From an uncultured Bacteroidota bacterium (GTDB lineage: Bacteria > Bacteroidota > Bacteroidia > Chitinophagales > LD1): DNA of 64,000 nt. Positions 2,463 to 40,751 of this stretch are shown one piece after another (positions within the stretch are counted from its first letter, which is position 1; every line of letters starts with the position of its first letter). The position numbers were made by a program, and so were the translations under genes. The notes below the pieces were generated by a model that was not told where the DNA came from, ran no database searches, and saw nothing but the letters and a program-made list of their open reading frames with translations. The stretch covers positions 12,969-76,968 of the forward strand of contig CAIOTH010000134.1 in assembly GCA_903861145.1 (NCBI GenBank), written 5' to 3'.

Positions 2463-3305
2463 TTACTCGATGATTAATCTCTTAGTGAATGTAGATACTC
2501 CGTCAGTAATAGAGTAGAAGTATACACCAGCAGAAAGTGTGTTTCTTGTAATAACGTGTGAGTTAGTACCCATTTTCACATCAACTTGTTGGCTGTAAAC
2601 TTCGTTACCAATAATGCTGGTAATTTTTTCAGTCATCATACCTGCTTTAGCAGAGTTGAAAGAAATCATCGCCTGGCTGGTGAAAGGATTAGGATAAACG
2701 CTTAACGATTGGATATTCTGATCTACATTGTTAATGCTGTTTATTATACAACCATTGCTACCGTTATAAGCAATAATACCGTTTGCATCGGCTTGGGTAG
2801 TATCAATTACATGCCAGCAAGACGAATCAGTAGCATTTACTCTAACAAAATATTTTAAGCCGGCTGCATCTGCATTTGTAGTTATAGGGAAACCAATGTT
2901 GGTCCACGCTCTAACAATAATGTGCAGTTTGTATTGACCAGGCGTTGCAGTTGTTGTTCCTGTTACTTTGATACAACCATTTTGTTGGTTGCCAAAAGTG
3001 TTAGTGTTACTATTTGTAGCCCAGCAAAGACCTGAAGGCAAATTGCTGATGGTATCAACTTGCAATGAATCCATGGTAAGTGTTTGACCGCTGAAGGTAA
3101 GCGTATCATAGTTCTGAAACTCGATAACTGTTGATGTTGCAACATTATCAACTATCGGAGCCAAACTATCAGATATCGGGCTCAAACCTGGCTTAGCTAA
3201 AATTGTAGGAGTACAAACCGAAGAGCCTGAACCGCCACAATATTGTGCGTTTGATTTAACTGCGATGATACAAAATAGTGAAAGAGTAAAAATTAATTTT
3301 TTCAT
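2463..3305 (-). CDS. secreted protein with T9SS C-terminal sorting domain (paralog of 1501-2340)
   Basis: Signal peptide ending SNAQ. C-terminal LSVYPNPFTSQAMISF...AGVYFYSITDGVSTFTKRLIIE. Shares the blocks DTI.NLP.GLCW, TGTT...GQY.L and DAAG.K....RV with the neighbouring gene. Confidence 0.85.
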   Translation of the reverse strand: MKKLIFTLSLFCIIAVKSNAQYCGGSGSSVCTPTILAKPGLSPISDSLAPIVDNVATSTVIEFQNYDTLTFSGQTLTMDSLQVDTISNLPSGLCWATNSNTNTFGNQQNGCIKVTGTTTATPGQYKLHIIVRAWTNIGFPITTNADAAGLKYFVRVNATDSSCWHVIDTTQADANGIIAYNGSNGCIINSINNVDQNIQSLSVYPNPFTSQAMISFNSAKAGMMTEKITSIIGNEVYSQQVDVKMGTNSHVITRNTLSAGVYFYSITDGVSTFTKRLIIE

Positions 3306-32867: not shown

Positions 32868-33764
32868 TTAGACACTTTTATTGCTAATCTCGAGTTTATA
32901 GCCTTTACCATGAATGTTTAAAAGGGCTACATCCGGATCATTTTCGAGCTTTTTTCTAAGCCTTGAAATGAACATGTCCAGGCTCCTGCCTACTATTACA
33001 CCCTCGTCTTCCCATATCTCCTTTTGAAGCCTTTTTCTGTCAATGATCTTATTGGGCGCATTGGCAAAAATGCTGAGTATTTTAGCTTCCTTCACCGTTA
33101 ATATCGCATCCGCTTCATTAAACCTCAGTATTTGCTCATCAGCAAAGAAAAGGTATTGGCCAATTGCTATCCCCTGCTTTTCGCTTACAAGTGTATCACC
33201 CTCTTTTGCATTTGGTATTTCTTTTCCCTTTTTACGTCCATTCACCACAAATAGCACTAAGCCCAATCCCAGTATGCCGAAACCGCCCAGGTAAAGGCCT
33301 TTGAAAGCATACGATCTGTTTTCCTCAAACTTAATATCGATGTAATATGGCCTGGCGGGCTGGTCCCTGCCCTTACAGGGCACAATACTTTGTTGTTCGG
33401 GGCCCATTACGGCATATCCGTAAATCACCTTGTCAGATTTACGCTCGCGCACAGTTACTATATACTTTGAAGGAAGTTTGTTATTTGCAATAACTTTGTC
33501 GATAATATTCACCAAGGAATCTGGCTTAAACGAAAATGGGCTCTCAAACGGGATGCAAAATTCAGTGGCTGAGAGCCGGCTAACAGGCGCAATGGGTGAA
33601 GTACTGTCGCCGGTATATTGTAAAATCTGGTGGGCGACGTTTCTCATCACGATCATTTCTTTCGAAGCATCAAAATCGCTTTTACCTGCTTTATCAGCGG
33701 CAAAAGCAGTCAAAATAACGAGTAACCCAATAACAATAGAAATGAGAGGCAATTTCCTTATCAT
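32868..33764 (-). CDS. membrane-anchored winged-helix (OmpR/PhoB-type DNA-binding domain) transcriptional regulator lacking a receiver domain
   Basis: TM1 (LPLISIVIGLLVILTAFAA), ~150-aa predicted extracytoplasmic domain, TM2 (GLYLGGFGILGLGLVLFVV), RKKGKE, then a trans_reg_C-like domain (LTVKEAKILSIFANAPNKIIDRKRLQKEIW...VGRSLDMFISRLRKKLE...IHGKGYKLE). The ATG at 33764 is preferred; 33812 is possible. Confidence 0.75.
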   Translation of the reverse strand: MIRKLPLISIVIGLLVILTAFAADKAGKSDFDASKEMIVMRNVAHQILQYTGDSTSPIAPVSRLSATEFCIPFESPFSFKPDSLVNIIDKVIANNKLPSKYIVTVRERKSDKVIYGYAVMGPEQQSIVPCKGRDQPARPYYIDIKFEENRSYAFKGLYLGGFGILGLGLVLFVVNGRKKGKEIPNAKEGDTLVSEKQGIAIGQYLFFADEQILRFNEADAILTVKEAKILSIFANAPNKIIDRKRLQKEIWEDEGVIVGRSLDMFISRLRKKLENDPDVALLNIHGKGYKLEISNKSV

Positions 33765-33919
33765 ATTCAAAAGTAGAAAGTTAATAGCGTTTGTAGCCTC
33801 ATTTGCAATCATTTTACAACGTCGTTACACTTGTTTTACAATTATTTTGCTCCTATCCGTTCTCGCTCAAGTACTTTTGTGTGGTTCAATAAAACTTCGT
33901 TCACCAAAACAAGCCATTT

Positions 33920-35347
33920 ATGTTTAAGCTAACCTTTTTATTGCTGCTCTTAACGGTTTTTGCTTCTCCCTTTTATTGTCAAAACAAGCCATCCAAAATC
34001 AACTCCACACCATCCCAAAATAATGACGGGAAATCAAAATTACTTAATCCTGAGGCCAAAACGCCATTCCCTTACAATCACTCCGTTGACAAAGGTTTGC
34101 CAGACAAATCCGGAAATCTATGGTTCGCTACTTCCGAAGGTATATATCGCTATGATGGGAAATTGTTTACCAAATATCAGGTTATGGATGGCTTACTTGC
34201 AGACCACGTTGCCTGTATGTTGCAGGATAAAGCAGGCAATATTTGGTTTGGTGCCCGTTGCGGAATCGTTCGCTATAGTCCTTTTGCAGTAACCGGCTCA
34301 GGCTCTCCATTATTTACCGGTGTAAAAATGCGAGAGGCCAACGGTAACGGTTTTCTGGCTGATGTAAAAGGCAATGATGTACCGGATGCAAAAAACACAG
34401 TAACACAAATGATTGAAGATCCGCATGGCGCTATATGGTTTTGCGTAGGCTTCAATCTATATCGCACCGATGGCAAATCACTGGCGGCCATTACTACCGC
34501 GGTTGGAGACTATTTGAAAAGTGAAAGAGCCCAGTATCACTGCACTTACCCTGACGATTTTGGCATTGCCGGTATATATCAAGACAAACAGGGAAACATA
34601 TTGATATCTACCATAGCTTGTAGTTGTGGCCCTAATGTAATTTATCGTTTGGATGGAAGCAGGACAAACCATCCTTGTATTTTAAACTCTTGCAAACACG
34701 ATTTGCACAATCCGCAGGAGCTTGCAGCGCATAATAAAGAAATCGCTTCTTCCTTCAGCAAAATAAGTAATGAAGAAGGCAATACTAAAATTGCCTTTAC
34801 TACTGTATTGGAGGATAAGTCAGGCACTATATGGATTGGTAGTGATAGCGGTGTTTACAGGTATGATGGCATGCACTTAACCCATTTCACAAAAGGTGAT
34901 CTTCTTAGCAAGAGTGTTGTGAACAACATCTATGAAGATAAAAAAGGAAATATCTGGTTCGGCACAGCCGAAAGCGCCGATTTTAAGGGCAATGGTGTAT
35001 TCCTTTACGAACCTTCGGCTTCGGCAAAACCGGGCTCTTCATCAATCACTCAATTCACTACCAAAGATGGACTTTGTAATAATGGCCCTTTTAAAAGCAA
35101 TATCGTTTCATCTATTGCAGAAGACAATATGGGAAAACTTTGGATTTCGGGCGATGGAGGAGTAAGCTATTACAATGGCAAAGGCTTTACCAGCTTGACA
35201 AAGAAAGATGGCTTCACCAATCAGCCCGTCAAATGCATGGCAAAAGACAAAGTCGGCAACCTTTGGTTTGGCACATGGTTATTGGGTCTGTACCGTTATG
35301 ATGGAATATCACTGATCTGTTTTACGGAAAATATGCCTGAGCTATAA
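33920..35347 (+). CDS. secreted two-component-regulator-propeller (Reg_prop) repeat protein
   Basis: Signal peptide, then at least 7 repeats of the G(N/T)(I/L)W(F/I)G(T/S)..G(I/V).RYDG type (for example GNLWFATSEGIYRYDG, GTIWIGSDSGVYRYDG, GNLWFGTWLLGLYRYDG). Confidence 0.8.
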   Translation: MFKLTFLLLLLTVFASPFYCQNKPSKINSTPSQNNDGKSKLLNPEAKTPFPYNHSVDKGLPDKSGNLWFATSEGIYRYDGKLFTKYQVMDGLLADHVACMLQDKAGNIWFGARCGIVRYSPFAVTGSGSPLFTGVKMREANGNGFLADVKGNDVPDAKNTVTQMIEDPHGAIWFCVGFNLYRTDGKSLAAITTAVGDYLKSERAQYHCTYPDDFGIAGIYQDKQGNILISTIACSCGPNVIYRLDGSRTNHPCILNSCKHDLHNPQELAAHNKEIASSFSKISNEEGNTKIAFTTVLEDKSGTIWIGSDSGVYRYDGMHLTHFTKGDLLSKSVVNNIYEDKKGNIWFGTAESADFKGNGVFLYEPSASAKPGSSSITQFTTKDGLCNNGPFKSNIVSSIAEDNMGKLWISGDGGVSYYNGKGFTSLTKKDGFTNQPVKCMAKDKVGNLWFGTWLLGLYRYDGISLICFTENMPEL

Positions 35348-37082: not shown

Positions 37083-37400
37083 GGACGCTATTACTGCTTT
37101 AAAAGCCGGCATAGCCGAGTTTGGTAAAGAGTATATTATACCTGAAATAATGCTGGTGCCCGTTTTGTAATGAAAGCCACAATTGTTTTCCGCTTTCATT
37201 TTTCGGGTCAAAAACCCATTAAAACCGCTTCAAAACAAACTTATTCAAAGGCCAACAATCGAATTAGTAAGAAAAATAACCGATTATTACCACATAGACA
37301 ATTGAAGCTATAATTGCCTTACGCTCCGCTAAAATATCCTTACCTATTCAAAAACATTATATTAAATAACTATTTGTGCATACAACCACTAAAAGCCTCT

Positions 37401-37408
37401 TATCTTTG
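37401..37408 (+). promoter_or_regulatory. -7 box TATCTTTG (PKD-repeat gene)
   Basis: Exact TAnnTTTG, 62 nt upstream of the ATG at 37470. Confidence 0.45.
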
Positions 37409-37469
37409 GACCGTAGTTGGTGAAACAATTAGAAGCACCAACTCATTAAACAAAATAAAACCATACCCC

Positions 37470-40400
37470 ATGAGAAACAAGTTTACACGGTTTTCTTTAT
37501 CAACGGTTTTTGCAAATTACACTGTGGTGCTTTTTCTGCTACTGGCAGTTGGCTCTTTGCGGGCGCAAACTGTGTGCGATGCGCACTTTGCACATTACTC
37601 GCTTCACAACCCTGATAGCCTGCACTTTTATCCATCATCGGCACACGCGGTGGGGTATAGCTGGAATTTTGGCGATGGTGGTACTTCAACCAATCAAGAC
37701 CCTTGGCATTTCTTTACAACCGCCGGCACCTATAATGTATGCTTAACGGTAGCCGACAGCAACGGAACCACATGCACCTGGTGCGACACCGTGCATATAG
37801 GCACCGTGCCAACGTGCAATGCTGCCTTTAGTTATTATACTATACACAACCCCGATAGCCTGCATTTTTATCCCAATGGGTCAGCGGGCACAGCATACTA
37901 TTGGAATTTTGGTGATGGCACAACTTCGCCGCAACAATATCCATGGCATTATTACGCGCACGCCGGTACTTACATCGTTTGCTTAACGGTGGCTGATACA
38001 TCGGGTGTAACCTGTAGTAAGTGCGATACGGTAACTGTGGGACCTGCGCCAACTTGTAGCGCTGCTTTTAACCACTACGCTTTAACTAATCCTGATAGTT
38101 TGCATTTTTACGCAACCGCAACTTCAGGTATCACCTCTTACTATTGGAATTTTGGCGATGGCACAACATCTCCTCATAACACACCTTGGCACCTTTTCAG
38201 TGGGCCGGGCACTTATAATGTATGCTTAACGGTTGTTGACAGCAATGGTAACACCTGCACCAGTTGCGATAATGTGCATGTAGGCCCTGCAACTACCTGC
38301 AGCGCAGCTTTTAGTCATTATAGCATCAGCAATCCGGATAGTATGCACTTCTATCCAATTACTACTACTGCGGTCGCTTCATACTATTGGAATTTTGGAG
38401 ATAACACAACATCAACGGTTCAATATCCATGGCATTATTACCCGCATGGCGGCACTTATTATGTATGCCTTACCGTAGTTGATACCAATGGCGTAACATG
38501 CACCAGCTGCGATACAATTAGCGCGGGCCACGCATCAACCTGCAGCGCAGTATTTGTGCATTATGTTGTAAATAACGATAGTATTCACTTTTACCCAACC
38601 GGGTTACACGGCCTTAGTTATTACTGGAGTTTTGGTGATGGTACCACAAGCACTATCTTCAACCCATTTCATACCTACGCAACACCAGGTACTTACAATG
38701 CCTGCTTAACAGTAGCAGATAGCAATGGACAAACATGCACATCATGCGATACGGTAGTATTTGTGGGTCCAAACGCGAGTACATGCAGTGCCTCGTTCAG
38801 CCATTACGCAGGTAGCAATCCTGATAGTTTGCACTTTTACGCAACCGGTGAGCATATAGCCACTTATAGCTGGAGTTTTGGCGATGGTAGTACATCACCG
38901 CACGGTAATCTATGGCACGTTTTCAGCGGGCCGGGTACTTATTATGTTTGTTTAAGTGTGGTTGACAGTTCGGGACAAAGTTGCTCGAAGTGCGATACTA
39001 TTCATATAGGTACGGTATCGCCTACATGCAACGCCCAGTTTAGTTATTATACGATACACAATCCCGATAGCCTTCATTTTTATCCAACCGGCACAGCGGC
39101 CCATTCTTACTACTGGAATTTTGGCGATGGAACAACCTCGACACAGCAGTATCCATGGCACTTATATAGTGGCCAGGGTACTTACCGCGTGTGCTTGTAT
39201 ATGGCCGATACAGCAGGTGTTACCTGCGACCAGTGCGATACGGTGCATGTTACCGGTGTAACAACAACCTGCATTGCCCAATTTGCGCATTATAACCTTA
39301 CCGGTGTTAATATTGACAGCGTTCATTTTTATGCTACAGGTCCACACGCCGCATCGTATTACTGGACATTTGGTGATGGCGCGACCTCACCGCACAGCGA
39401 CCCATGGCATTATTACGCTCATCCGGGTGTTTACACTGCATGCTTAACGGTAGTTGATAGCGCCGGCACCAGTTGCACCAACTGCGATACCGTTACTATT
39501 ACTGCGATTAACAGCTGCAATGCGCAGTTTAGCTATTACACGATACACAACCCAGATAGCCTTCACTTCTATCCTACCGGTGCGCCGTCGGCATCGTATT
39601 ACTGGAATTTTGGTGATGGTACTATATCAACACTTCAATATCCATGGCACTTTTATAGTAATGCCGGCACCTATTATGCCTGCCTTACAGTTGCCGACTC
39701 GGCGGGTATAACTTGTACTCATTGCGATACGGTACGTGTAGGGCCGCCAACTACCTGTAATGCGCAGTTTGCTCATTACTCTATGGGAACCAATGTTGAC
39801 AGTGTTCATTTTTACCCTACCGGTACACATGTTGCTTCGTATTACTGGAATTTTGGCGATGGAACCACATCTACCAACATGGACCCATGGCACCATTATG
39901 CAGGGCCGGGCACTTACTATGCTTGCTTAACGGTTGCAGATTCAGGTGGTGTTACATGCACCAACTGCGATACGGTTTATGTGGGTTCGCCACATACCTG
40001 TAACCCGGCATTCAGCCATTACAGCATTAACAACGCGGATAGTATACACTTCTATCCCACCGGTACCGGTTCAACGGCATGGTACTGGAGCTTTGGCGAT
40101 AGCACCACTTCTACATCACAATATCCTTGGCATTATTATACCAGCGATGGTATTTATTATGTGTGCTTAACGGTTGTAGGCCCATCGGGTACCACCTGCA
40201 CCCAATGCGATACCGTACATGTAGGCACACAGGGCTTTGGCGTACATGCCCAGCACCACCCGGCAAGTAATAGCAATAACCCCGACAGCGTTCAGTTTAC
40301 GCCGATAGGCTCGCCGGATGCCGTGGCTTGGTACTGGGATTTTGGTGATGGCTCATACGCCTGCCAGGAAAGCCCAATACATTACTACGCCAGCGTGGGT

Positions 40401-40751
40401 ATTTACTACGTAACACTTACAGCTGCCGATACAGCCGGTGCAGTTTCGGTTTCGTACGACACGGTTAACACAGGCACTACCGGTGTAGTAAATGTGCAGC
40501 CAACAGCGGCAGTAGCCAAAATATACCCTAACCCGATGAACGACTTTGCTATAGTGTATATGAAAAACATTACCGGCACTGCTGTTTTAAGGTTGTATGA
40601 CATTACCGGCCAATTGGTATATGGTAAAGATAACCTGGGCGATGGCAGCTTTACGGTTAATACGCACAACTTTACAGCAGGTGTTTATTTCTACACTATT
40701 GGCGATAGCAGTGAAATTATAGCCCAGGGTAAATTGATGGTTATCCATTAA
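37470..40751 (+). CDS. T9SS-secreted protein with 12 tandem PKD-like repeats
   Basis: Signal peptide MRNKFTRFSLSTVFANYTVVLFLLLAVGSLRAQ, 12 repeats of ~81-83 aa containing W.FGDG and H.Y...G.Y.VCLTV, and a C-terminal T9SS CTD (KIYPNPMNDFAIVYM...AGVYFYTI...GKLMVIH). A TATCTTTG box at 37401-37408 supports the ATG at 37470 rather than the track start at 37314. Confidence 0.9.
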   Translation: MRNKFTRFSLSTVFANYTVVLFLLLAVGSLRAQTVCDAHFAHYSLHNPDSLHFYPSSAHAVGYSWNFGDGGTSTNQDPWHFFTTAGTYNVCLTVADSNGTTCTWCDTVHIGTVPTCNAAFSYYTIHNPDSLHFYPNGSAGTAYYWNFGDGTTSPQQYPWHYYAHAGTYIVCLTVADTSGVTCSKCDTVTVGPAPTCSAAFNHYALTNPDSLHFYATATSGITSYYWNFGDGTTSPHNTPWHLFSGPGTYNVCLTVVDSNGNTCTSCDNVHVGPATTCSAAFSHYSISNPDSMHFYPITTTAVASYYWNFGDNTTSTVQYPWHYYPHGGTYYVCLTVVDTNGVTCTSCDTISAGHASTCSAVFVHYVVNNDSIHFYPTGLHGLSYYWSFGDGTTSTIFNPFHTYATPGTYNACLTVADSNGQTCTSCDTVVFVGPNASTCSASFSHYAGSNPDSLHFYATGEHIATYSWSFGDGSTSPHGNLWHVFSGPGTYYVCLSVVDSSGQSCSKCDTIHIGTVSPTCNAQFSYYTIHNPDSLHFYPTGTAAHSYYWNFGDGTTSTQQYPWHLYSGQGTYRVCLYMADTAGVTCDQCDTVHVTGVTTTCIAQFAHYNLTGVNIDSVHFYATGPHAASYYWTFGDGATSPHSDPWHYYAHPGVYTACLTVVDSAGTSCTNCDTVTITAINSCNAQFSYYTIHNPDSLHFYPTGAPSASYYWNFGDGTISTLQYPWHFYSNAGTYYACLTVADSAGITCTHCDTVRVGPPTTCNAQFAHYSMGTNVDSVHFYPTGTHVASYYWNFGDGTTSTNMDPWHHYAGPGTYYACLTVADSGGVTCTNCDTVYVGSPHTCNPAFSHYSINNADSIHFYPTGTGSTAWYWSFGDSTTSTSQYPWHYYTSDGIYYVCLTVVGPSGTTCTQCDTVHVGTQGFGVHAQHHPASNSNNPDSVQFTPIGSPDAVAWYWDFGDGSYACQESPIHYYASVGIYYVTLTAADTAGAVSVSYDTVNTGTTGVVNVQPTAAVAKIYPNPMNDFAIVYMKNITGTAVLRLYDITGQLVYGKDNLGDGSFTVNTHNFTAGVYFYTIGDSSEIIAQGKLMVIH
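37575..40483 (+). repeat. 12 in-frame tandem repeats (~243-249 bp each) encoding Cys-containing PKD-like modules
   Basis: Each unit begins with C(N/S)A.F.HY and contains NPDS(L/M/I)HFY, YYWNFGDGTTS, PWH.Y..GTY.VCLTV.D..G.TC..CDTV. Unit 12 is degenerate and lacks the Cys residues. Confidence 0.9.

What the first reader, a model, noticed from the sequence alone, without database searches (positions are those of the whole stretch)
32868..35347. Divergent pair: a receiver-less, membrane-anchored winged-helix regulator and a secreted Reg_prop beta-propeller - a possible split sensing module
The regulator has predicted N-in topology: TM1, a ~150-aa periplasmic domain, TM2, then a cytoplasmic C-terminal OmpR/PhoB-type DNA-binding domain. 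It has no receiver domain or phospho-acceptor Asp region. ToxR and CadC place the DNA-binding domain at the N-terminus, so this arrangement is inverted relative to them. About 155 bp away (33765-33919; 107 bp if the upstream ATG at 33812 is used), divergently transcribed, is a 475-aa signal-peptide protein made only of two-component-regulator-propeller repeats. That fold normally forms the periplasmic sensor of Bacteroidota hybrid two-component systems, but here it lacks Y_Y_Y, kinase or AraC parts. Inference: the free propeller may bind a ligand and signal to the regulator's periplasmic domain.
Basis: partly seen in the sequence, partly recalled or inferred. Interest (0 to 1): 0.55.

Follow-up and report, generated by a model that had tools for sequence, protein, structure and literature searches.

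The report
Membrane-anchored regulator with partner propeller gene
A membrane-spanning DNA-binding regulator and an exported beta-propeller gene beside it form a conserved, apparently self-regulating module found across Bacteroidota, and it belongs to a large regulator family that has not been studied.

Summary
A 298-aa protein (true start 33764) has TM1, a ~130-aa periplasmic domain, TM2 and an OmpR/PhoB-type winged helix, with no receiver domain. It lies 155 bp from, and divergent to, a 475-aa signal-peptide protein made only of Reg_prop repeats.

- The regulator belongs to a large, uncharacterised Bacteroidota family (>=595 species loci). Its sensor domain has no Pfam model and no PDB structural neighbour, and in the 150 best hits it occurs only in this architecture.
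- The intergenic region holds four TGTAA direct repeats at an 11-bp period. Equivalent arrays sit at the regulator's 5' end in 65 of the 80 related loci, at a fixed distance from a Bacteroidota -7 box and a leaderless ATG. A second -7 box faces the propeller.
- All 15 assessable relatives in the window's clade keep the divergent propeller. Elsewhere in the family the same slot holds other exported proteins (YceI-like, BNR propeller, unknown families).
- All 10 propeller homologs looked up sit next to a transmembrane signalling module of one of three kinds.

Best reading: an autoregulated transmembrane one-component regulator controls the propeller gene through a shared operator. Feedback by the propeller on the sensor (as with CpxP or ZraP) is possible but untested. 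This is a new variant of a known kind.

The parts
32868..33764 (-). Regulator gene (298 aa from ATG 33764; the longest ORF runs back to 33812): a transmembrane one-component regulator with no receiver domain
   Evidence: ORF. Pfam Trans_reg_C only. Start supported by the -7 box 3-4 nt upstream, conserved in relatives. Full-length homologs at ~50% identity in >=595 species loci.
33696..33752 (-). TM1 (aa 5-23 of the 298-aa protein)
   Evidence: Kyte-Doolittle peak of 2.64. Helix 2-25 in the AF2 model.
33309..33695 (-). Periplasmic sensor domain (aa 24-152), an alpha-beta-beta-alpha-beta4 fold with one invariant Cys (VPCKGR)
   Evidence: AF2 pLDDT 87.7, pTM 0.83. No Foldseek PDB neighbour: best E 0.02, TM 0.42. 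No Pfam hit and no PDB sequence hit. 700 representative clusters; the top 150 are all <=332 aa with the domain in the same position. Invariant residues.
33243..33299 (-). TM2 (aa 156-174), followed by a K/R-rich, low-confidence linker
   Evidence: Kyte-Doolittle peak of 2.2. Helix 150-180, then pLDDT <50 for residues 180-195.
32880..33170 (-). Cytoplasmic OmpR/PhoB-type winged-helix DNA-binding domain (aa ~199-295); closest family model is RprY
   Evidence: Pfam E 1.7e-16. NCBIfam RprY E 6.6e-24, matching the C-terminal part of the model only. Foldseek TM ~0.8 to SaeR, CadC, ToxR and PhoB DNA-binding domains.
33797..33840 (-). Probable operator: four direct repeats at an 11-bp period (TGTAAAACAAG TGTAACGACGT TGTAAAATGAT TGCAAATGAGG)
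   Evidence: Unique in the window, 0 expected. Repeat coordinates. TTGTAAA occurs in 72/77 family upstream regions vs 2 control segments. 65 of 66 arrays found in 1.2 Mb of related loci lie at the regulator's 5' end on its strand. Binding itself is inferred.
33768..33775 (-). Bacteroidota-type -7 promoter box (TACTTTTG) of the regulator, 3 nt before the ATG (leaderless mRNA); no -33 TTTG upstream, where the proximal repeat lies instead
   Evidence: In relatives the spacing from last repeat to -7 box is conserved at 32 nt, and the box lies 3-4 nt from the ATG. The promoter consensus comes from established knowledge of Bacteroides promoters.
33846..33879 (+). Probable propeller promoter: -33 TTTG (33846-33849) and -7 TACTTTTG (33872-33879), the latter 31 nt from the distal edge of the array
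   Evidence: The same ~32-nt distance from array to opposite-strand -7 box is seen in L001, L004, L011, L012, L082 and L085.
33920..35347 (+). Exported free beta-propeller (475 aa; signal peptide aa 1-~20; about eight Reg_prop repeats; no other domain)
   Evidence: Homologs share contigs with regulator homologs. Cys20 is not conserved in the closest homologs, so the protein is probably soluble in the periplasm rather than a lipoprotein.

Best explanation
The pair is a self-contained envelope-signalling module built around a transmembrane one-component regulator.

Shown:
- The regulator has an N-in topology: TM1, a periplasmic alpha/beta sensor domain of an unclassified fold, TM2, a flexible linker and a cytoplasmic OmpR/PhoB-type winged helix.
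- Four TGTAA direct repeats at helical (11-bp) spacing lie between the two genes.
- A -7 box faces each gene at a conserved distance from the repeats.
- The arrangement is conserved across Bacteroidota.

Inferred:
- A periplasmic or envelope cue changes the oligomeric state or orientation of the membrane-anchored protein, so that its DNA-binding domains occupy the four repeats head-to-tail, as PhoB does on pho boxes.
- The proximal repeat replaces the missing -33 element of the regulator's own leaderless promoter, which would give positive autoregulation.
- The distal repeats lie at about -44 to -85 of the propeller promoter, which would give co-regulation of the exported propeller.

On this reading the propeller is first of all the regulated output of the module. 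It may also feed back on the sensor in the periplasm, as CpxP does on CpxA and ZraP on ZraS, but that step is untested.
For: - Architecture and topology.
- Operator: unique in the window. TTGTAAA is present in 72/77 family upstream regions against 2 control segments. 65 of 66 arrays in 1.2 Mb lie at the regulator's 5' end. The one exception lies upstream of a detached gene of a neighbour class, as expected if these genes are operator-controlled.
- Fixed geometry: last repeat, 32 nt, -7 box, 3-4 nt, ATG. An opposite-strand -7 box sits ~32 nt from the array in 7 of 17 clade-A loci plus L082 and L085.
- Census: the regulator is constant, its divergent neighbour is always an exported protein, and no other flanking gene is conserved. 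In the window's clade 15/15 have the propeller.
- Cassette class does not affect sensor conservation, as expected for interchangeable cargo.
- The same propeller family lies divergent from RprY-like two-component operons that carry an analogous TGTTA array at 11-bp spacing. The propeller gene is thus repeatedly wired to OmpR-type regulators with the same promoter logic.
Against: - No binding, expression or interaction data exist, so operator function is inferred from conservation and from analogy with PhoB and OmpR.
- The propeller promoter has its own -33 TTTG, so it need not depend on an activator.
- Whether regulation is activation or repression is unknown.
- Only 7 of 17 clade-A loci show a perfect opposite-strand -7 box at the fixed distance.
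- The stable 15/15 pairing in the window's clade, and the 10/10 association of propellers with signalling modules of three kinds, fit an accessory-sensor role equally well.
- A shared Gly-Cys C-terminal tail in several neighbour families hints at a direct common interaction that a pure target model does not explain.
Confidence: 0.6

Rival explanations
1. Split sensor: the free propeller is the ligand-binding module. It docks on the regulator's periplasmic domain and switches it, as the fused propeller does in hybrid two-component systems or as TorT and LuxP do for their kinases. Co-regulation by the operator would be secondary. The CpxP/ZraP-like variant, in which the propeller is both target and modulator, overlaps with the best explanation.
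For: - 15/15 adjacency in the window's clade over deep divergence.
- 10/10 propeller homologs lie next to a transmembrane signalling module of three unrelated kinds.
- The fold is that of a known ligand-binding sensor.
- The regulator's sensor domain is small and matches no known ligand-binding fold.
- The Gly-Cys tails of many neighbour proteins, together with one invariant periplasmic Cys in the regulator, could mark a common docking or disulfide mechanism.
Against: - Neighbour classes are interchangeable among near-identical regulators, and sensor identity does not track cassette class.
- The propeller would have to dock on three unrelated periplasmic domains. The kinase sensor shows no detectable homology to the regulator's sensor domain.
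- The window's propeller lineage lacks the Gly-Cys tail.
- No fusion of the propeller with this regulator was seen among the top hits.
- No interface prediction was possible.
Confidence: 0.25
2. Coincidental neighbours: two unrelated genes that happen to be divergent, with independent expression and function.
For: In the window each gene is followed by a convergent gene, so each is a separate transcription unit. No experimental link exists.
Against: The pair is conserved across Chitinophagales, Cytophagales, Sphingobacteriales, Flavobacteriales and Kapaibacteria while every other flank varies. A conserved operator with fixed geometry lies between the genes.
Confidence: 0.03
3. Degenerate relic: the regulator is a decayed remnant of a kinase/response-regulator fusion or of a hybrid two-component system, and no longer signals.
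For: Its DNA-binding domain is closest to RprY-type response regulators. RprXY-like systems occupy the same position next to homologous propellers in other genomes.
Against: The family has 700 representative clusters with a uniform length of ~290-310 aa. Both the sensor domain and the DNA-binding domain contain many invariant residues. Its own operator is conserved. This is the pattern of purifying selection on a working protein.
Confidence: 0.02

Closest known systems
ToxR / CadC / TcpP / PsaE-type transmembrane transcription regulators (TTRs)
   Same: A one-component membrane-anchored regulator with an OmpR/PhoB-type winged helix (Foldseek TM 0.72-0.77 to the ToxR and CadC DNA-binding domains) and a periplasmic sensor. 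It would bind tandem repeats while tethered to the membrane. These regulators often work with a second exported or membrane protein (ToxS, TcpH, PsaF, LysP), and periplasmic cysteines matter in ToxR and TcpP (own knowledge; PMC7496328 and PMC7017273 listed).
   Different: The order is reversed. Here there are two TM helices with the sensor between them and the DNA-binding domain at the C-terminus. ToxR-type proteins have an N-terminal DNA-binding domain, one TM helix and a C-terminal sensor. The sensor fold is unrelated and unclassified.
CpxP-cpxRA and ZraP-zraSR (a divergently transcribed periplasmic accessory protein beside an autoregulated envelope sensor system)
   Same: An exported protein gene is transcribed divergently from the regulator, with the OmpR-type binding sites in the shared intergenic region. 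In those systems the exported protein is both a regulon member and a periplasmic modulator of the sensor (own knowledge).
   Different: Those are two-component systems with small helical accessory proteins. Here the transducer is a single polypeptide without kinase or receiver, and the partner is a ~450-aa beta-propeller. Feedback is not shown.
Bacteroides hybrid two-component systems (e.g. BT4663; PDB 4A2L/4A2M, 3V9F)
   Same: The propeller is built of the same Reg_prop repeats as their periplasmic sensor (E 4.5e-29 to 4A2L).
   Different: It is a free, single, signal-peptide propeller. It has no Y_Y_Y domain, TM helix, kinase, receiver or AraC domain.
RprX/RprY-like two-component systems of Bacteroidota
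   Same: The regulator's DNA-binding domain scores best against RprY (E 6.6e-24 against 1.5e-12 for the next model). RprY-like kinase/regulator operons sit divergent from homologous propellers, with an analogous array of 3-4 TGTTA repeats at 11-bp spacing followed by a -7 box.
   Different: There is no kinase core and no receiver domain. The sensor domain is not detectably homologous to the kinase's periplasmic region (hhalign probability <0.2). The DNA-binding domains are only 30% identical.
PhoB on pho boxes
   Same: Direct repeats at an 11-bp period lie immediately upstream of a promoter that lacks its upstream element, oriented towards the gene (own knowledge; geometry).
   Different: PhoB is soluble and activated by phosphorylation. 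Here the repeats number four, the promoter is of the Bacteroidota -33/-7 type, and the mRNA is leaderless.

Membership tests
OmpR/PhoB response regulators | C-terminal winged-helix Trans_reg_C DNA-binding domain | tested here: met
   Pfam E 1.7e-16. Foldseek TM ~0.8 to SaeR, PhoB and OmpR DNA-binding domains.
OmpR/PhoB response regulators | N-terminal receiver domain with a phospho-acceptor Asp | tested here: not met
   No Response_reg hit at E<=1. NCBIfam response-regulator models align only from about position 130 onward. The N-terminal 190 aa consist of TM1, the periplasmic domain and TM2.
ToxR-like transmembrane regulators (ToxR, CadC, TcpP, PsaE) | N-terminal cytoplasmic winged helix, a single TM helix, C-terminal periplasmic sensor | tested here: not met
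   The winged helix is C-terminal and there are two TM helices with the sensor between them.
Transmembrane transcription regulators in the broad sense (PMC10269533) | At least one TM region plus a DNA-binding domain in one polypeptide | tested here: met
   Definition as read.
PDC / Cache / PAS-type periplasmic sensor domains | Structural similarity to PhoQ, DcuS, CitA or Cache folds | tested here: not met
   A confident model (pLDDT 87.7) has no such hit among its PDB matches: best E 0.02, TM 0.42, to unrelated proteins. No Pfam hit.
Hybrid two-component system sensors (propeller protein) | Reg_prop beta-propeller repeats | tested here: met
   Pfam E 1.3e-35. PDB 4A2L E 4.5e-29.
Hybrid two-component system sensors (propeller protein) | Y_Y_Y domain, TM helix, HisKA/HATPase, receiver, AraC output | tested here: not met
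   None detected at E<=1. The protein ends after the last propeller repeat.
CpxP/ZraP-type accessory arrangement | Exported protein gene divergent from an autoregulated envelope sensor, sharing its operator region | tested here: met
   Divergent arrangement with a shared repeat array and -7 boxes on both sides. Operator function itself is inferred.
CpxP/ZraP-type accessory arrangement | The exported protein binds and modulates the sensor's periplasmic domain | not testable with these tools
Indirect evidence is mixed.
Bacterial lipoproteins (propeller protein) | Conserved lipobox Cys at the end of the signal peptide | tested here: inconclusive
   The window protein has Cys20 (SPFYC/QNK), but the closest homologs have Gly or Ser there (P0122, P0123, P0126). 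More distant propellers have S-C lipobox-like motifs.

The most novel reading that the evidence does not exclude
A phylum-wide plug-and-play envelope sensor. A constant membrane transducer, with an unclassified periplasmic fold bearing one invariant cysteine and fused directly to a winged helix, would read out exchangeable exported adaptor proteins encoded next to it (Reg_prop propellers, BNR propellers, YceI-like proteins and unknown families). Many of these end in a shared Lys-x-Gly-Cys-COOH tail that could dock on, or form a disulfide with, the transducer. The adaptor would supply ligand specificity and the transducer the output, so the propeller would be a true detachable sensor. The same propeller family would serve RprXY-like kinases and BlaR1-like proteases in other genomes.
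Probability: 0.12. Interest if true: 0.8.

Novelty: new variant of a known kind. Interest (0 to 1): 0.55.

Why it matters
Transmembrane one-component regulators are known to be enriched in Bacteroidota (PMC10269533), but almost all mechanistic knowledge comes from ToxR and CadC in Proteobacteria.

This locus exemplifies a large family (>=595 species loci, 700 clusters at 50% identity) with several distinctive features:
- an architecture reversed relative to ToxR;
- a sensor fold absent from Pfam and the PDB;
- a clearly predicted operator and a leaderless autoregulated promoter;
- a fixed slot for exported partner or target proteins.

This gives an immediately testable regulatory module in genetically tractable soil and water Bacteroidota. 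It also assigns a first functional context to free Reg_prop propellers and to several unannotated exported families. If the partner proteins prove to be detachable sensors, it would be a new modular logic for envelope sensing.

Tried and rejected
- The word-indexed protein search with the sensor domain alone returned nothing. The exhaustive HMMER search replaced it.
- I expected a PDC/Cache-type fold for the sensor. Foldseek gave no significant PDB neighbour and phmmer against the PDB gave nothing.
- By eye the periplasmic region of the L083 kinase looked similar to the regulator's sensor, including a Cys at a similar place. hhalign rejected this with one sequence (probability 0.2) and with a four-sequence profile (probability <0.1).
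- RprY papers were checked for a binding motif to compare with TGTAA. None is reported there.
- Literature searches for the family, for free Reg_prop proteins and for the TTGTAAA motif found no description.
- The sigma-70 promoter and terminator scan found no more hits than in the shuffles and does not model Bacteroidota promoters. A direct search for TAnnTTTG was used instead.
- A complex prediction by fusing the two chains was considered and dropped. The tool returns no PAE or coordinates, so the second structure job went to the isolated sensor domain.
- The upstream ATG at 33812 was rejected as the start because it lies inside the operator.
Full report

Yes. The window holds a 314-aa ORF at 32868..33812 (-) and a 475-aa ORF at 33920..35347 (+).

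The regulator:
- Its only Pfam domain is Trans_reg_C at aa 237-307 (E 1.7e-16). No receiver domain appears even at E<=1.
- NCBIfam response-regulator models align only through their C-terminal ~100 positions. RprY is clearly the best match (E 6.6e-24; next is PhoB at 1.5e-12).
- Hydropathy shows two transmembrane segments, aa 21-39 and 172-190 of the 314-aa ORF. The flanks MIRK and NGRKKGK are K/R-rich.
- An AlphaFold2 model (67-sequence alignment, pLDDT 81.5) shows helix 2-25, a folded alpha/beta domain, helix 150-180, a disordered linker and a winged helix.
- The winged helix superposes on the SaeR, CadC, ToxR, PhoB and OmpR DNA-binding domains at TM ~0.7-0.84.
- With two TM helices and a DNA-binding domain that must be cytoplasmic, the topology is N-in and the central domain of ~130 aa is periplasmic.

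The propeller:
- It carries Reg_prop repeats (E 1.3e-35), about eight by eye, and nothing else.
- It has an N-terminal signal sequence.
- Its closest solved relatives are the periplasmic sensors of Bacteroides hybrid two-component systems, 4A2L at E 4.5e-29 and 3V9F.

**2. The regulator belongs to a large, uniform, uncharacterised family.**

- Full-length homologs at ~50% identity occur in Emticicia, Lacibacter, Chitinophagaceae and others.
- A scan of one genome per species found at least 595 loci, covering Chitinophagales, Cytophagales, Sphingobacteriales, Flavobacteriales and Kapaibacteria. The best 80 were fetched.
- Both the sensor domain and the DNA-binding domain contain many invariant residues. 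These include a single invariant periplasmic Cys.
- The sensor domain modelled alone is confident (pLDDT 87.7, pTM 0.83).
- It has no significant Foldseek neighbour in the PDB (best E 0.02, TM 0.42; no PDC, Cache or PAS hit). It has no Pfam model and no PDB sequence relative.
- An exhaustive HMMER search of 1.84 billion representatives found 700 clusters. The 150 best are all 332 aa or shorter, with the domain at aa ~25-150. Among those hits the domain occurs in no other architecture.
- Source names are generic, such as 'winged helix-turn-helix domain-containing protein'.
- The general class of transmembrane transcription regulators is known and reported as enriched in Bacteroidota (PMC10269533). 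I found no description of this family.

**3. A conserved operator and promoter architecture.**

- Upstream of the regulator genes, TTGTAAA is present in 72 of 77 regions, against 2 control segments. It occurs as direct repeats.
- In the window the repeats are TGTAAAACAAG, TGTAACGACGT, TGTAAAATGAT and TGCAAATGAGG. They lie on the minus strand at 33840-33797 with an exact 11-bp period.
- The three-copy pattern is unique in the 64 kb, with 0 expected from shuffles.
- Across 1.2 Mb of related loci, 65 of 66 arrays (three or more copies, 9-13 bp apart) lie at the regulator's 5' end on its strand. The exception, L006 11220-11245, sits upstream of a detached gene of one neighbour class.
- In the window's subfamily the geometry is fixed. 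The start of the last repeat is followed after 32 nt by a Bacteroidota -7 box, TAnnTTT[G/A], and the ATG lies 3-4 nt beyond that.
- This geometry has three consequences.
  - The mRNA would be leaderless.
  - The start codon is fixed at 33764. The ATG at 33812 is inside the operator, and the 'MIVK...' extension that gene callers give many homologs is simply ATG-ATT-GTA-AA translated.
  - The proximal repeat occupies the place of the missing -33 element, as in PhoB-dependent promoters (own knowledge).
- On the other strand a -7 box (33872-33879) and a -33 TTTG (33846-33849) face the propeller gene. The -7 box is 31 nt from the array.
- The same ~32-nt distance recurs in L001, L004, L011 and L012, and in L013 and L016 after allowing for their extra repeat. 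It also recurs in L082 and L085.
- A second subfamily uses three repeats spaced 12 and 9 bp apart.

**4.

- With an HMM built from propeller homologs, a divergent Reg_prop propeller lies directly upstream of the regulator in about 22 of 73 assessable loci. It lies within the same divergent block in 4 more.
- On a regulator tree, all 15 assessable members of the window's clade have the propeller immediately adjacent. So do a Pedobacter clade and a Kapaibacterium locus.
- No other flanking gene is conserved. The window's own flanks (EamA and RNase H on one side, AlaDH-like and TsaE on the other) are not found elsewhere. This is a functional linkage, not residual synteny.

**5. The propeller is not the only occupant of that slot.**

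- In the other large clade (the 12+9 operator), the divergent neighbour varies. It may be an unknown ~180-aa exported protein (30 loci), a YceI-like protein (13), a BNR/Asp-box propeller (about 8), another unknown 190-aa protein (4) or a Reg_prop propeller. Several are often stacked.
- Near-identical regulators carry different cassettes. For example, L044 (propeller) and L058 (180-aa protein) are 86% identical in the sensor domain and 96% in the DNA-binding domain.
- Sensor identity is the same for pairs with the same cassette class and pairs with different classes (74.4% vs 75.4%).
- This pattern suits interchangeable regulated cargo better than class-specific docking partners.

**6. Reverse census.**

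Ten free propeller homologs (34-56% identity) were looked up.
- Two are divergent from a ~300-aa Trans_reg_C-only regulator carrying the same operator.
- Four are linked to a HisKA kinase plus RprY-like response-regulator operon. Three lie directly divergent from it; in the fourth (L090) three small genes lie between. Upstream of these operons are 2-4 TGTTA repeats at about 11-bp spacing, followed by a -7 box.
- Four lie directly downstream, on the same strand, of a BlaI-like repressor and a BlaR1-like protein with M56 and Amidase_3 domains.

So 10 of 10 sit beside a transmembrane signalling module. The one-component regulator and the RprXY-like two-component systems appear to be alternative transducers wired to the same kind of gene with the same promoter logic. 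The kinase's periplasmic region is not detectably homologous to the regulator's sensor.

**7. Interpretation.**

The best-supported mechanism is an autoregulated transmembrane one-component regulator. It would bind the four direct repeats and control both its own leaderless promoter and the divergent propeller gene.
- Shown: the architecture, the operator's conservation and geometry, and the gene linkage.
- Inferred: DNA binding, the direction of regulation and the cue.

- In favour: the invariable pairing in the window's clade, the association of propellers with three kinds of sensors, and the sensor-type fold.
- Closest precedents: CpxP/cpxRA and ZraP/zraSR, where a divergently encoded periplasmic protein is both target and modulator (own knowledge).
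- Against a specific docking role: the cassette interchangeability, and the need to fit three unrelated periplasmic domains.

I put the regulated-target core at 0.6, a genuine co-sensor or feedback role at about 0.25, and coincidence or decay at 0.03 or less.

**8. Side observation.**

- At least four unrelated neighbour families end in Lys-x-Gly-Cys-COOH. These are all 30 of the ~180-aa proteins (where it is usually their only Cys), the short BNR propellers, about 10 Reg_prop propellers and two small proteins.
- They account for 49 of the 61 Cys-terminal ORFs among 1196 ORFs, and 44 loci have at least one.
- Together with the regulator's single invariant periplasmic Cys, this suggests a shared, possibly disulfide-based interaction.
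- The window's propeller lineage lacks the tail, so it cannot explain this particular pair.

**9. Verdict and limits.**

It is a new variant of a known kind (transmembrane transcription regulators), with a reversed architecture, an unclassified sensor fold, a defined putative operator and a conserved slot for exported partner or target genes.

Limits:
- The 80 loci are the best-scoring subset of at least 595.
- Gene calls are simple ORF calls.
- Orthologs and paralogs are not separated in clade B.
- No multimer prediction or experimental data were available.

Noticed in passing
L001-L080, divergent block upstream of the regulator (e.g. L001 6041-6583, L012 5596-6699, L006 6779-7966, L046 7436-7861): At least four unrelated exported-protein families end in a Lys-x-Gly-Cys-COOH tail. 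They account for 49 of the 61 Cys-terminal ORFs among 1196 ORFs. In the ~180-aa family it is usually the only Cys. The regulator's sensor domain has one invariant Cys. The window's own propeller lacks the tail.
   Followed up: partly
window 33765-33812 and homologs P0008, P0018, P0034, P0069: Gene callers add a 16-aa 'MIVK...LFL' (in the window, MIAN...) N-terminal extension to many family members. This is the conserved operator (ATG ATT GTA AA) being translated, and the real start lies 3-4 nt after the -7 box.
   Followed up: yes
L006 11220-11245: An orphan array of the second operator type (12+9 spacing) lies upstream of a detached ~180-aa Gly-Cys-tail gene, with no regulator ORF beside it. 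The locus's own regulator uses the 11-bp type.
   Followed up: partly
L083 2867-3000, L088 1588-1988, L089 3254-3500, L090 1092-1228: RprY-like kinase/response-regulator operons next to homologous propellers (directly divergent in L083, L088 and L089) carry TGTTA direct repeats at about 11-bp spacing followed by a TAATTTTG-type -7 box. This parallels the TGTAA array of the one-component family.
   Followed up: partly
L084, L086, L087, L091 (propeller at 3001 or 3501 onward): Homologous free propellers lie directly downstream, on the same strand, of a BlaI-like repressor and a BlaR1-like protein with Peptidase_M56 and Amidase_3 domains. A repeated ACTAnAAATATAGTTTTAG element lies upstream of the repressor gene in L084, L086 and L087.
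   Followed up: no
window 37314-40751 (+): A 1145-aa protein made of about a dozen near-identical ~75-aa PKD-type repeats (FSHY..NPDSLHFYP...WNFGDGTTS...CLTV.D..G.TC..CDTV).
   Followed up: no
L034 8001-8825 and the next gene downstream: Two regulator paralogs lie in tandem with a ~180-aa Gly-Cys-tail gene between them, which shows that the family duplicates locally.
   Followed up: no
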